The position numbers are program-made. Below are positions 3,001 to 6,000 of a stretch of DNA of 17,056 nucleotides, piece by piece (the stretch's first letter is position 1; each line of letters begins with the position of its first letter). The DNA lies in the IMG/VR virus record IMGVR_UViG_2671180921_000025, positions 1-17,056 of that record. One strand, 5' to 3'. This DNA is from a virus. Its lineage: Duplodnaviria; Heunggongvirae; Uroviricota; Caudoviricetes.

Positions 3001-6000
3001 CCGATGCGGTAACCAATGGTTGTTCCATCGCTCATCTGGAAACTGAATGGATCATCGTAGGTCTTCATCTGCTTAAAGGTCGGGAAGATATAAACTTCAG
3101 TGTTCCAGCCTGTCCAGTAGCGACCAACACCGACCACTTCACCGACGCCTTTGTCGTCGCCAAGTTTGTTGACTTTGATGCCCACATTACCAGGCTCAAC
3201 ACGATCACAACCGACAAGGCCAATGGCAGGCAGAACAATGGCTAAAGAAAAAATAATTTTTTTCATCTTTTATCCTTAGTGAAAGAAAGCCCCTTATAAA
3301 TGGCATAAATGCATGGCGGGGTCAGAAACGCCAGTGCAAAGCCAGAAATTACCGCTACCGTATCCTTCATTGATATCAGAAACGGGACGAGTAATCCGTA
3401 AATGCATGCGATAATTGCCAGTGATATGACTATTCTGAAATAAATATTCATGCTCCTCCTGATATCTTTCTGATTGCCTTTTTCAACTTTTTACTGTTAT
3501 TCACGCTACAGTAAATTTCGGCAATCTCACGTGATAACATTATTTCTCCACTGTTTTTATCTATAGCAACGAGACCGGGATTGTCTCGTATGAGTTTCTT
3601 TATCATTGGCATTGCCATAAACTCTTCTGGCGTATAGATGCGTGTATGGCGGCGAACGTGTTTTATCACAGGTGTTTTATGTTTTGATTCAACCTGAAAT
3701 ACATTAATTTTATTTTGATTTGCCATGTGTAATTTAATGTGTCACTGGTGCTTCTGGTATACCATGAGTATTCAGATCGTGAATCATTTCATCCAGAAGG
3801 AGTTCAAGCCCTTCGCGGCCCATAGCAGAGACAATGAAACCATTATCAGGATCTGCGATGAGCATTTTTTGATAGAGAAACAGAACTCGCCCCATGCCTT
3901 CAGCTTCGCCATATTTTTCAATAAATCCCCATTCGACATGGTTTTGCAGGGCAATGCGAAGTGGTCCTGGGTATATACTCAGGCAGCCATGCTTCCCCTT
4001 ATAAATAACTGCACGATCTGTAGTTCCGTTATCGTTAGGGATATCAATGGTGCCGTTCTTGCCTTCTTCTTCATTTATAAACGTCGTCACATACAGCCAT
4101 CGCCATTGAGCAATCTTCATATCGACTGAAAATCGTCCCAGTAATCCGGCATCATCGGCTTCAGCAATACATTGCATAATTCTTAAACTGTGAGAATTTG
4201 GATAATCGTATTCACCATCATTAAGCCGCTGTACGGCCTCAACATAATCAATGGTTGTATTGCCAATTTTTATGCCATGTGGCGTAACTTCTGGTCGGAA
4301 CTCTGAATGATTCATAATGTTTGCTCCTTTGCTGGTGGAATAATCGTGTAACCCGCTCTTTTTGCCATCCACAGAAATGTATCCATGCAGCCAACGAATT
4401 CATTATCCAGCAGATGTTTTGAGTAAATTACTTTCCCGTTTTCAATGGTTAGCAACACTCTTATTTTTTCGTGTATTACCCCCTCAGGCACATCCTGTAT
4501 TTTATTTCGTGCTGATGTTTCCATTATTTTATCTCCCATATGCTTTGCGCAAATACAGGTTGGCTATATGAAGATAAGAATCTCCATGTTGTGCAATGAG
4601 GCAGGCAGTTTTATACGATGCCTTATTTTTCAGGAAAGTCATAACTGAGTTCCATCTGTGAATAAAGGTTGTAACAATCCCCGGCGATAAAACCGTAATA
4701 AAGGTTTAGGGCATATTTGTTGTTATTGCGCTAATTCTTTTTCGGCAGCAGCTTTTGCATATTCACATGTAAAATTCAGAATTTCGCTGCCGAGTGTTTT
4801 CGTTTCGTGATGACTGGACATATGTAATACCTGTGTTGCATGCAATAAATGATAAACATTTACCGCAAATGAATCAGGCTCCAGACAAATGCCTTCATAA
4901 TCATCTTGTTGTGAGGTTGTTTCTGTCATTGCTCCTGAAGTGCATGCGAGCCTGTTTTTGACAATTCTCTTTCCTCTAATCACTATATCGGCAACATCTA
5001 TTGCCTTTACAACCTCCGGGAGAAGTTCCGGGTTTGTATAATCAAAGTCATCAACATGGAGAACAGTTATGTTTTCGAACTTTTTCATGGCTTCCTCAGC
5101 TGACTTATATGTTCTGCTATATAGCGAGTCTCAGAAGTGTTTTCATATTGAGACTGTTTCCGCAATGATTGATAAAAATGTTCGCATGTACCTTGAGGGG
5201 CGAAGCGGCGATTATGTCACCATTGGTATTGGTTCTTCCGTAGAAGAGCTTCGCGAGATAAGGAGCAAACTTGTTGAGATGCGTCATGGTGTTGCTGCTC
5301 CTCACTTTTTGGTTGCTCCGGAGGAGTAACCTCGCCAGTTAACAGCCACATCGGATCGCAGCCAAGAACATTAGCCAGTGGGATAAGCATACTGATGGTT
5401 GGTTCATACTCTCCGCTCTCCCACTGGATGATGATTTCTTCATCGAGTTCGAGCAGCCTGGCGAGTTCGGCGGTTGTTAAGCCGCAGGTTTCGCGTTGGG
5501 TGCGAATCCGATTCTGGGAATTAATAGCTAAATTTTGTTTGCATAAACGTGACGCGGTGAGGCTATATTTTTGAGTTACAGCCAGGATGGAGCTGGCAAG
5601 TTCAATTAACTCAGGGTTATTGCTGCTATACAGTAGTGCACCAGCCCCTACTAAGAGCTGAATATTCTCAAGAGCATCGTGCTGATTTGTTGGTAATCCC
5701 ATATACGATGACATTTTTCTCATCCTCTATAATTGCTTTGGTGAGTTCGATACCTATGTCAAGATAATAGGTTTACCGATTTCATCTGTCAATCGGTTTA
5801 TCGATTTTTTTCCCAAAAAAAAGCCCACTTAAGAGTGGGCGGGTTAAATGATTTTTGCTTATGCAAAACGGTGTAGTGTCATAGGCCAACTGACAATTAC
5901 TTTTCCGTCAATGTGAAGTTGTTCGAAGTCTTCCGGTTCGATAGCCCAATCCTTGTAAGCTGGGTTGTCAGATATCACCGTTAGAGTATCTTTGATTTTT

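What the first reader, a model, noticed from the sequence alone, without database searches (positions are those of the whole stretch)
5217..5845. N-position gene encodes an HTH protein behind a consensus promoter wrapped in repressor-like half-sites
The leftward promoter is near-perfect (TTGACA-N17-TATTAT) and the TTTATCG-type repeats overlap its -35 and spacer. The first gene of that transcript is an XRE-type HTH protein, not an N-like Arg-rich antiterminator. cI is insulated from it by its own U8 terminator. This suggests a second DNA-binding regulator in the immunity region, possibly a late repressor, anti-repressor control, or a defence regulator.
Basis: partly seen in the sequence, partly recalled or inferred. 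Interest (0 to 1): 0.42.

Follow-up and report, generated by a model that had tools for sequence, protein, structure and literature searches.

The report
Early-left promoter and odd acidic HTH gene
In this Shiga-toxin prophage the repressor-controlled leftward early promoter is real, but its first gene encodes an unusually acidic helix-turn-helix protein, paired with a small paralogue, that probably does not read the immunity operators and has no known function.

Summary
The window is a phiP27-like Stx2 prophage of the kind that integrates at yecE. Downstream of cI there is a hairpin plus T8 terminator. After it comes the only 11/12 sigma-70 match in the window, TTGACA-17-TATTAT. Two 14-bp ATCGG-N4-CCGAT-type sites overlap its -35 and -10, and the only other such site lies in the cI-cro region. 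Six heteroimmune relatives show the same layout, each with its own motif at both places, so this is an ordinary PL/OL.

The first gene has a genuine Cro/CI-type fold and is not N-like. The reading as a second immunity-region DNA-binding regulator is only partly supported. The HTH is nearly invariant across seven repressor types and is under strong purifying selection. It is also strongly acidic (net -6 to -9, pI about 4.2), and its recognition helix starts D-E-E. The N-terminal helical hairpin varies strictly with repressor type, and DNA homology between heteroimmune phages starts exactly at the domain border. The window allele has lost a second HTH through a 240-nt in-frame deletion. A paralogue carrying only the hairpin domain follows in 93 of 96 loci.

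My best reading is an early, CI-repressed factor that acts on a conserved target, probably through protein contacts. Its function remains untested.

The parts
5859..6551 (-). cI repressor gene (HTH plus Peptidase_S24, 230 aa)
   Evidence: Pfam Peptidase_S24 E = 7.5e-17, weak HTH_19/HTH_3 matches, PHROG 4 'transcriptional repressor'. The N-terminal 70 residues have net charge +3 and pI 9.8.
5815..5840 (-). Intrinsic terminator of the cI transcript (7-bp stem, CTTA loop, T8)
   Evidence: -14 kcal/mol, z = -2.55. Present in every locus of this cI type that was examined except L036, with a stem-preserving loop variant in L024, L035 and L075.
5764..5792 (-). PL-type promoter: -35 TTGACA (5787-5792), 17-nt spacer, -10 TATTAT (5764-5769)
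   Evidence: It is the only match of at least 11/12 in the window, and an equivalent promoter is present in all immunity types.
5767..5780 (.). Operator OL-a, ATAGGTTTACCGAT, overlapping the -10
   Evidence: One of only three matches with at most 1 mismatch to ATCGG-N4-CCGAT in the window. It lies within a 17-nt direct repeat spaced 25 bp from the second copy.
5792..5805 (.). Operator OL-b, ATCGGTTTATCGAT, abutting and overlapping the -35
6587..6600 (.). Perfect operator ATCGGCTTTCCGAT in the cI-cro intergenic region (core of TTTATCGG-CTTT-CCGATAAA, 6584-6603)
   Evidence: The motif occurs only in the OR and PL regions of this immunity type, not in those of the others.
5514..5714 (-). N-terminal helical-hairpin domain (residues 1-67, numbered from the ATG at 5714). 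It varies with immunity type.
   Evidence: AF2 helices 11-29 and 34-76. N-domain cluster and repressor cluster match 1:1 in 97 loci. DNA similarity to all heteroimmune loci begins at about window position 5506. The domain evolves about 10 times faster than cI.
5337..5513 (-). Acidic Cro/CI-type HTH domain (HTH1, residues 68-126), recognition helix D91-E-E-I-I-I-Q-W-E99
   Evidence: Pfam HTH_3. Foldseek best hit is the P22 C2 N-terminal domain, rmsd 0.9 A, 33% identity. 33 columns are invariant in 17 sequences. Net charge -6, pI 4.2. dN/dS is 0.03-0.2 with pS up to 0.72.
5217..5336 (-). Gln-rich C-terminal tail (PEQPKSEEQQHHDASQQ...SREALLRKNQYQW) plus stop codon. The junction of the HTH2 deletion lies at its start.
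   Evidence: The tail is conserved in the Salmonella homologues. The window allele equals the 258-aa L014-type gene minus 240 nt between the repeated 3' ends of HTH1 and HTH2. Low-confidence helix at 145-163.
4723..5088 (-). Next gene (phiP27 L08-like, 121 aa). Its residues 54-121 (nt 4726-4929) are a stand-alone copy of the N-domain.
   Evidence: BLASTP: 45% identity, E = 3e-10, to the N-domain of the L006-type HTH protein. hhalign of the N-domain profile against the stand-alone profile gives 95.5% probability, E = 1.6e-8. Such an ORF follows the HTH gene in 93 of 96 loci and is found nowhere else in them.
6671..6958 (+). cro-position gene (YdaS-type HTH), transcribed from a PR-like promoter (TTGAAT 6620-6625, 17 nt, TATTAT 6643-6648)
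   Evidence: Pfam YdaS_toxin E = 1e-14. Promoter scan.

Best explanation
Region 5764-5845 is the PL/OL equivalent of a phiP27-like Stx2 prophage. Transcription of cI stops at its own terminator. Immediately downstream lies a strong sigma-70 promoter flanked by two CI operators that overlap its -35 and -10. The promoter is therefore shut in the lysogen and fires after infection or after CI is cleaved (inferred from sequence and comparison).

Its first product is a 165-aa protein with three parts: a helical hairpin, one Cro/CI-type HTH and a Gln-rich tail. It is made only in the early phase.

The protein is not a second immunity repressor. Its HTH is nearly invariant across heteroimmune relatives, under strong purifying selection and strongly acidic, with an acidic recognition helix. 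It therefore most likely recognises a target common to all these phages or to the host, and probably does so by protein-protein contact rather than by canonical operator binding (inferred).

The fast-evolving hairpin is most simply an oligomerisation module. The hairpin-only paralogue encoded just downstream may modulate the protein by mixed oligomer formation, on the SinR/SinI principle (speculative).

The biological output is unknown. It could lie in the lysis-lysogeny decision, host takeover or counter-defence.
For: PL/OL:
- Promoter and terminator.
- Three operator copies, found only at PL (two) and in the cI-cro region (one).
- In six immunity types, the motif of each type occurs in its own OR and PL regions and not in those of other types.

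Fold:
- Pfam HTH_3.
- AF2 plus Foldseek, best hit the P22 C2 N-terminal domain.

Not an immunity reader:
- HTH1 is invariant at 33 positions in 17 sequences spanning several immunity types.
- 97 loci with 7 repressor types all carry this HTH.
- dN/dS is 0.03-0.2 even where synonymous sites are near saturation.

Atypical head:
- Net charge -6 to -9 and pI 4.1-4.2, against +2 to +9 and pI 9.3-10.5 for the DNA-binding domains of P22 C2, 434 cI, 434 Cro, lambda cI and these phages' own cI proteins.
- P22 C2 residues R20, Q21, S31, N32, V33, S36 and R40 align with T, T, D, E, E, I and S (alignment).

Module:
- The mosaic junction lies at the domain border.
- The C-terminal architecture reassorts within immunity types.
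- The hairpin-only paralogue lies downstream in 93 of 96 loci.

No specific family matches in Pfam, NCBIfam or PADLOC. The PHROG families are of unknown function or carry only a 'CII-like' label.
Against: - No experiment supports any of this, and nothing on this gene turned up in the few literature searches run.
- Most XRE HTH proteins do bind DNA.
- One key contact (Q97, equivalent to P22 Q37) and the helix-1 arginines are retained.
- Among more distant relatives the HTH net charge ranges widely (mean -0.1, sd 3.8), so -6 is unusual but not unheard of.
- A few family members in Salmonella carry canonical-looking recognition helices (TTQAVSLWE), so the ancestral function may be DNA binding.
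- The type of the stand-alone hairpin does not covary with the N-domain type of the HTH protein. That weakens a specific heterodimer model.
- Many of the 97 loci are near-identical copies, so there are far fewer independent observations than loci.
- The operator motifs were chosen by eye from the same sequences on which they were then tested.
Confidence: 0.5

Rival explanations
1. A conventional sequence-specific DNA-binding regulator. A dimer formed through the hairpin binds a conserved site in the shared left arm, or elsewhere. One example is a CII-like activator of int or cI establishment promoters. Another is an early repressor that turns down part of the early programme.
For: - XRE fold with the P22 C2 N-terminal domain as nearest structure.
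- PHROG 4836 carries the label 'CII-like regulator'.
- No recognisable cII lies downstream of cro, yet the lambda-like xis-int arrangement would need some establishment control.
- HTH1 and the tail travel with the conserved left arm.
- Some Salmonella homologues have canonical recognition helices.
Against: - Acidic head (net -6 to -9) with D-E-E at recognition-helix positions 1-3 and loss of most P22-type contacts.
- Almost every surface residue of HTH1 is invariant, which is more than DNA reading usually requires.
- No Pfam CII family match.
- The 'CII-like' label is an untested annotation.
- No binding site emerged from a limited look (an inverted repeat was read by eye in the HTH-L08 gap; the repeat scan failed).
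Confidence: 0.27
2. A MOR-like anti-repressor or commitment factor. The immunity-linked N-domain binds the phage's own CI or Cro. Once PL fires, the remaining repressor is neutralised.
For: - N-domain type is linked 1:1 to repressor type in 97 loci, and the mosaic joint lies exactly at the domain border.
- It is the first gene of the CI-repressed lytic promoter, as mor is in TP901-1, where an HTH protein binds the CI N-terminal domain (PMC7250872, PMC11149083).
- It is an acidic protein facing a basic repressor head.
Against: - Within one immunity type the N-domain has diverged to 51% identity while CI stays 94% identical, so the two do not co-evolve tightly.
- The linkage is expected anyway for DNA only about 140 nt from cI.
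- The phage already has a cro-position gene.
- A PL-encoded anti-CI would hinder establishment of lysogeny.
Confidence: 0.1
3. A functional analogue of lambda N: a processive antiterminator for the early operons that is of a non-ARM type.
For: - It occupies the N position as the first PL gene.
- No N homologue was found in the window, whereas a Q-type antiterminator is present at 11428-12258.
Against: - It is acidic and has no Arg-rich motif.
- BoxA-like sequences are not enriched, with 9 hits against 10.5 expected.
- No Rfam or structured leader was found.
- No minus-strand terminator-like site was found in the scanned part of the left operon (4500-5700) apart from the cI terminator.
Confidence: 0.04
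4. A decaying, functionless remnant of a duplicated repressor head.
For: Architecture is highly plastic, from 120 to 258 aa, with HTH2 and the tail each present or absent. The window allele is a deletion derivative.
Against: - HTH1 has dN/dS of 0.03-0.2 at near-saturated synonymous divergence.
- The promoter, the reading frame and the paired paralogue are conserved in nearly all loci.
- The tail is conserved between E. coli and Salmonella.
Confidence: 0.03

Closest known systems
Lambda/P22 PL-OL early-left control region
   Same: Both have a leftward early promoter immediately downstream of cI and multiple repressor operators overlapping the -35 and -10. The same operator type occurs at OR. 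The operators covary with repressor type across heteroimmune relatives.
   Different: Two clear operators 25 bp apart rather than three. cI ends in its own terminator, with no rex-like cargo. The first gene is not N.
P22 C2 / 434 cI / 434 Cro DNA-binding domains (Cro/CI-type HTH, Pfam PF01381)
   Same: The same five-helix fold. P22 C2 is the best match by both sequence and structure (33% identity, rmsd 0.9 A).
   Different: Net charge is -6 rather than +4 to +9. The recognition helix starts D-E-E. There is no S24 domain. The HTH sits after, not before, the oligomerisation element.
SinR/SinI of Bacillus subtilis (from my own knowledge)
   Same: An XRE HTH is joined to a two-helix oligomerisation element. 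An adjacent gene encodes a small protein homologous to that helical element alone.
   Different: Domain order is reversed. There is no sequence relationship to SinR or SinI beyond the HTH fold. Heteromer formation is untested. The stand-alone type does not covary with the fused type.
MOR of lactococcal phage TP901-1 (PMC7250872, PMC11149083)
   Same: Both are HTH proteins encoded as the first gene of the CI-repressed lytic promoter. MOR is a precedent for an HTH protein that acts by binding a repressor rather than acting only on DNA.
   Different: MOR is a small single-domain protein in the cro position. Here a separate cro-position gene exists, and the protein has an extra hairpin and a tail. 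No interaction data exist.
phiP27 L10 (NP_543062), ASU11 gp50 'putative CII repressor', phi467 'DicA', and the 'transcriptional regulator' of Stx phages integrated at yecE
   Same: All are true homologues in the same position directly downstream of cI.
   Different: They differ in N-domain type and in whether HTH2 and the tail are present. All the names are automatic or speculative, and none is characterised.

Membership tests
Cro/CI-type (XRE) HTH fold, Pfam HTH_3 | Profile match above the curated cut-off | tested here: met
   40.8 bits against a cut-off of 23, E = 2.3e-10, residues 73-127.
Cro/CI-type (XRE) HTH fold, Pfam HTH_3 | Five-helix fold superposable on solved repressor heads | tested here: met
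   AF2 pLDDT is 81-91 over the HTH. Foldseek best hit is P22 C2, rmsd 0.9 A over 63 columns.
Lambda CI/LexA-type SOS-cleavable repressor | C-terminal Peptidase_S24 domain | tested here: not met
   No S24 match. The neighbouring cI does have one.
Lambda CI/LexA-type SOS-cleavable repressor | Basic DNA-reading head whose specificity covaries with the operators | tested here: not met
   Net charge -6 and pI 4.2. The HTH is invariant across six operator types.
Lambda N antiterminator | Arg-rich RNA-binding motif in a small basic protein | tested here: not met
   pI 4.74, net charge -9, no Arg cluster.
Lambda N antiterminator | nut sites (boxA/boxB) in the early transcripts | tested here: inconclusive
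   BoxA-like sequences are not enriched, 9 against 10.5 expected. BoxB hairpins were not searched for systematically.
Lambda N antiterminator | First gene of the PL transcript | tested here: met
Lambda CII / P22 C1 / 186 CII establishment activators | Sequence membership in a CII family | tested here: not met
   No CII family in the Pfam or NCBIfam output. Only the PHROG 4836 label 'CII-like regulator'.
Lambda CII / P22 C1 / 186 CII establishment activators | Activation of cI and int promoters at repeated -35 sites | not testable with these tools
   Needs reporter or binding assays.
SinR/SinI-type regulator-antagonist pair | HTH fused to a helical oligomerisation element | tested here: inconclusive
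   AF2 predicts a helical hairpin (11-29, 34-76) running into the HTH. The oligomeric state is not predicted.
SinR/SinI-type regulator-antagonist pair | Adjacent small paralogue of the helical element only | tested here: met
   hhalign 95.5%, E = 1.6e-8. Present in 93 of 96 loci.
SinR/SinI-type regulator-antagonist pair | Heteromer formation that inactivates the regulator | not testable with these tools
TP901-1 MOR-type anti-repressor | Direct binding to the CI N-terminal domain | not testable with these tools
   Only the positional analogy and the immunity-linked N-domain are available.
Acidic DNA-mimic anti-restriction proteins (Ocr/ArdA type) | Very high negative charge density mimicking DNA | tested here: inconclusive
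   Net charge -9 over 165 aa here and up to -19 over 237 aa in relatives. By my recollection this is well below the charge density of Ocr. No anti-defence profile library was available.

The most novel reading that the evidence does not exclude
The hairpin-HTH protein and its hairpin-only paralogue form a previously unrecognised early-gene module of phiP27-like prophages of E. coli and Salmonella, many of which carry Stx. In it a degenerate, acidic Cro/CI-type domain has been recruited as a protein-binding surface for a conserved host or phage partner. The module then tunes the lysis-lysogeny decision, and hence Shiga-toxin output, or disarms a host defence at the very start of early transcription.
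Probability: 0.25. Interest if true: 0.65.

Novelty: new variant of a known kind. Interest (0 to 1): 0.4.

Why it matters
In Stx prophages, early regulation decides when the toxin is made. This gene is the first product of the early-left operon in a large group of Stx1, Stx2a, Stx2d and Stx2e phages that integrate at yecE. Related DNA occurs in 281 of 5,426 complete E. coli genomes. The gene has never been characterised. Published surveys of Stx-phage regulatory regions concentrate on the cI-to-stx side, so this gene on the other side of cI goes undiscussed. One survey reports an atypical two-HTH 'CI' clade that may be this protein. If the acidic HTH acts through protein contacts, it would be a clear case of a repressor-head fold re-used for another purpose. 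The hairpin-only paralogue would then be a simple built-in antagonist. If instead it proves to be an ordinary DNA-binding regulator, the finding is routine.

Tried and rejected
- Specific family assignment. Pfam, NCBIfam, PADLOC and PHROGs gave only generic HTH matches or families of unknown function.
- Structure search. Only the HTH matched, and the hairpin found nothing.
- Solved-structure sequence search. Only repressor heads and MBF1-like HTHs were found.
- Defence-system reading. No PADLOC hit for any left-arm protein.
- Plasmid homologues, such as leading-region anti-defence genes. One record only, probably a prophage.
- Wider taxonomic context through species-representative genomes. The two loci returned (Erwinia, Serratia) are ordinary cI or Cro genes that matched only on 'LKCDPLWL', so they were discarded.
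- Binding site for the protein. A limited look gave no candidate. Only an unremarkable inverted repeat was read by eye in the HTH-L08 gap, and the repeat scan on that region failed.
- k-mer sharing between OR and PL. The result was too noisy in AT-rich DNA, so it was replaced by explicit motif counts.
- Literature. Searches on phiP27, Eru-type Stx phages, mEp021 antitermination and acidic HTH anti-repressors found no study of this gene. I could not confirm from the text or supplements that the 'Clade VIII CI' with two HTH domains in PMC8951638 is this family.
- First direct BLASTP of the HTH protein against the next gene. It was not significant. The relationship appeared only through other N-domain types and through profiles.
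Full report
CONTEXT

The window is the early region of a Shiga-toxin prophage. On the minus strand it carries:
- integrase (1-1314);
- excisionase (1370-1606);
- an SPFH lipoprotein (2439-3266);
- several small genes of unknown function;
- the HTH gene (5217-5723);
- cI, with an HTH and a Peptidase_S24 domain (5859-6551).

On the plus strand it carries:
- a YdaS-type cro-position gene (6671-6958);
- a helicase (7943-9601);
- a primase (9603-10571);
- a Q-type antiterminator (11428-12258);
- stx2 A and B (13781-15016);
- two tRNAs;
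- a holin and an endolysin.

Its left arm is about 95% identical to phage phiP27 and PhiR49_2. Near-identical prophages sit next to yecE in E. coli chromosomes.

THE OBSERVATION

On the minus strand, cI ends at 5859. It is followed by a hairpin, GCCCACT-CTTA-AGTGGGC, and eight T residues (5840..5815; -14 kcal/mol, z = -2.55).

Next comes TTGACA, a 17-nt spacer and TATTAT (5792..5764), which scores 11/12. This is the only match of at least 11/12 in the window. Such a match arises by chance in 36% of simulated windows, so the score alone is weak evidence.

The repeats are better described as a 14-bp pseudo-palindrome, ATCGG-N4-CCGAT. With at most one mismatch it occurs exactly three times in 17 kb, against 0.46 expected:
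- 5767-5780, over the -10;
- 5792-5805, at the -35;
- 6587-6600, in the cI-cro gap.

COMPARATIVE TEST OF THE PROMOTER AND OPERATOR READING

I collected 97 related loci from annotated phages, E. coli genomes and viral contigs. The upstream repressor falls into seven sequence types. One of them is a 130-aa protein without an S24 domain.

In every type the gap between the repressor gene and the HTH gene holds an 8-11/12 promoter. The best match has a 17-nt spacer in most types and a 16-nt spacer in two.

For six types I could name a short motif that occurs both in that phage's own repressor-cro gap and at its own PL:
- ATCGG-N4-CCGAT;
- ATCGC-N4-GCGAT;
- ATAG-N6-CTAT;
- AATCAAG;
- AGTATCA;
- CTAAAC.

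In a cross table each motif is confined to its own type, apart from one stray 6-mer hit. These motifs were picked by eye from the same sequences, so the test is not blind. Even so, the block-diagonal pattern is clean.

This is what a repressor-controlled PL/OL should look like. That part of the finding is ordinary lambdoid biology. The terminator after cI is found in some types and not in others.

THE PROTEIN

The most likely start is the ATG at 5714, which lies 8 nt after GAGGA. It gives 165 residues, and all residue numbers below count from this start.

Pfam places an HTH_3 domain in the middle. An AlphaFold model (mean pLDDT 71, and 81-91 over the HTH) shows three parts:
- an N-terminal helical hairpin (11-29, 34-76) running into a five-helix HTH;
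- a disordered linker;
- a low-confidence terminal helix.

Foldseek and phmmer both pick the P22 C2 DNA-binding domain as nearest relative (33% identity, rmsd 0.9 A). So the fold call is right, and the protein is plainly not N-like. It has pI 4.7 and no Arg-rich motif. BoxA-like sequences are not enriched.

WHY IT IS PROBABLY NOT A SECOND IMMUNITY REGULATOR

First, in an alignment of 17 homologues spanning several immunity types, the HTH has 33 invariant columns between R74 and L125. All 97 loci carry it, whatever the repressor type.

Second, the conservation reflects selection and not recent exchange. Between the window and L015, synonymous sites are near saturation (pS 0.72), yet amino-acid identity is 87% (dN/dS 0.03). 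Other pairs give 0.04-0.2.

Third, the domain carries a net charge of -6 to -9 (pI 4.1-4.2). The heads of P22 C2, 434 cI, 434 Cro, lambda cI and these phages' own cI proteins carry +2 to +9 (pI 9.3-10.5).

Fourth, the residues that align with P22 C2 R20, Q21, S31, N32, V33, S36 and R40 are T, T, D, E, E, I and S. The recognition helix therefore begins D-E-E (alignment). That these P22 positions contact DNA is from my knowledge of the P22 and 434 complexes.

Fifth, a gene behind a CI-repressed promoter is silent in the lysogen, so it cannot maintain immunity.

Some facts argue for caution:
- Q97 (P22 Q37) and the helix-1 arginines are kept.
- Among distant relatives the HTH charge spreads widely (mean -0.1, sd 3.8).
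- A few Salmonella members have canonical-looking recognition helices.

MOSAIC STRUCTURE

DNA similarity between the window and every heteroimmune locus begins abruptly about 208 nt into the gene (window position about 5506, codon 70). That is exactly the border between the hairpin and the HTH. The similarity continues into the shared left arm.

Everything to the right of that border is type-specific: the hairpin, PL, cI, the operators and cro. Hairpin cluster and repressor cluster correspond one-to-one in 97 loci.

The hairpins are nonetheless homologous to one another (21-34% identity). Within one immunity type they have diverged far more than cI. For L003 against L006, cI is 94% identical and the hairpin 51%, with a hairpin dN/dS of about 0.2.

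The simplest reading is that the hairpin is a loosely constrained structural element. On this view the conserved HTH-coding DNA is merely the first stretch left of cI that can support homologous exchange. A functional link to CI or Cro is possible but not required.

C-TERMINAL PLASTICITY

Within each immunity type the gene occurs with or without a second HTH, and with or without the Gln-rich tail, giving products of 120 to 258 aa.

The window allele equals the 258-aa form (L014) minus 240 nt. Window sequence near the end of HTH1 matches both the end of HTH1 and the end of HTH2 in L014. It is therefore an in-frame deletion between the two repeated HTH-coding segments.

The tail is conserved in the Salmonella homologues (QQHHRASQQ...SREVLQQ), so it is coding and probably functional.

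A PAIRED PARALOGUE

The next gene (4723-5088, phiP27 L08-like) carries a copy of the hairpin domain in residues 54-121:
- It is 45% identical to the hairpin of the L006-type protein (E = 3e-10).
- Profile-profile comparison of hairpins against stand-alone proteins gives 95.5% probability (E = 1.6e-8).
- PHROG 4587 matches both proteins.

In other phages the stand-alone copy is a 63-68-aa protein that starts within a few bases of the HTH gene's stop codon. phi467 has two such genes in tandem.

With an HMM of the domain, 93 of 96 loci with enough flanking DNA have one or two such ORFs just downstream. None of the loci has one anywhere else.

The type of the stand-alone copy follows the left arm and the C-terminal architecture of the HTH gene. 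It does not follow the immunity type.

This arrangement recalls SinR/SinI. It suggests modulation through mixed oligomers, but the lack of covariation weakens a strict pairing model.

DISTRIBUTION AND PRIOR KNOWLEDGE

In these searches the family proper turned up only in E. coli and Salmonella prophages. This includes many Stx1a, Stx2a and Stx2d phages integrated at yecE.

Annotations read 'hypothetical', 'helix-turn-helix domain-containing', 'DicA' or 'putative CII repressor'. No experimental work turned up in the few literature searches run.

The surveys of Stx-phage regulatory regions classify genes on the other side of cI. One mentions an unexplained 'Clade VIII CI' with two HTH domains and no peptidase (PMC8951638). 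This may be the same family picked up by mistake, but I could not verify that.

VERDICT

The promoter, operators and terminator are a standard PL/OL and cI terminator, now backed by comparative evidence.

The gene is a member of an uncharacterised prophage family. It has an atypical acidic repressor-head fold, a fast-evolving hairpin that belongs to the immunity block, and a conserved hairpin-only partner.

I favour an early-expressed factor that acts on a conserved partner by protein contact (confidence about 0.5 for the whole package). A conventional DNA-binding regulator is the main rival (about 0.27).

Interest is moderate. The control region is routine. The protein is an open question in a medically relevant phage group.

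Noticed in passing
window 4723-5088 (minus strand); L004 4365-4744; L006 5699-5899: Stand-alone copies of the N-terminal hairpin domain are encoded directly downstream of the HTH gene. In the window the copy is fused to an extra 53-aa N-terminal part. In other phages it is a 63-68-aa protein, and phi467 has two in tandem that, by eye, resemble N-domain types of other immunity groups.
   Followed up: partly
window 12373-13304 (minus strand): Two overlapping ORFs (12894-13304 and 12373-12939) match the N-terminal and C-terminal halves of the same PHROG family 7003. This looks like one gene between Q and stx that has been split by a frameshift.
   Followed up: no
window 15530-15683 (plus strand): tRNA-Thr(TGT) and tRNA-Gly(TCC) lie between stxB and the holin gene, downstream of the toxin genes.
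   Followed up: no
L015 3000-4000 compared with window 5764-6603: A related cI (50% identical overall, with a very similar N-terminal head) goes with the operator ATCGC-N4-GCGAT instead of ATCGG-N4-CCGAT. This looks like a one-base-pair change of half-site specificity between sister immunities.
   Followed up: partly
L013/L014 3276-3668: One immunity type has, in the cI position, a 130-aa repressor-like protein with no Peptidase_S24 domain and no Pfam hit. Its own motif (CTAAAC/GTTTAG) occurs at both OR and PL. Induction of this type cannot work through RecA-stimulated self-cleavage of an S24 domain.
   Followed up: no
proteins P0121, P0127, P0169: Metagenomic proteins of 1,000-3,000 aa contain 7-13 tandem copies of a related XRE HTH domain. 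Their origin and function are unknown.
   Followed up: no
window 6584-6670: The single perfect operator lies about 20 bp upstream of the -35 of the PR-like promoter rather than over it. Only weak operator-like sites (6607-6620, 6656-6669) overlap PR itself. How CI represses PR and regulates its own promoter is therefore not obvious from sequence.
   Followed up: no
window 5069-5329 (plus strand): An 86-aa ORF lies antisense to the tail-coding end of the HTH gene. It is annotated as L09 in phiP27 and is also called in L017. It is probably spurious, because the tail is conserved in the HTH frame as far as Salmonella.
   Followed up: partly
window 6921-7214 (plus strand): The gene after cro overlaps cro's 3' end by 38 nt. 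It belongs to PHROG 852 (unknown function) and is shared with Salmonella phage Fels-1 and Yersinia phage YP3. It occupies the position where lambda has cII.
   Followed up: no
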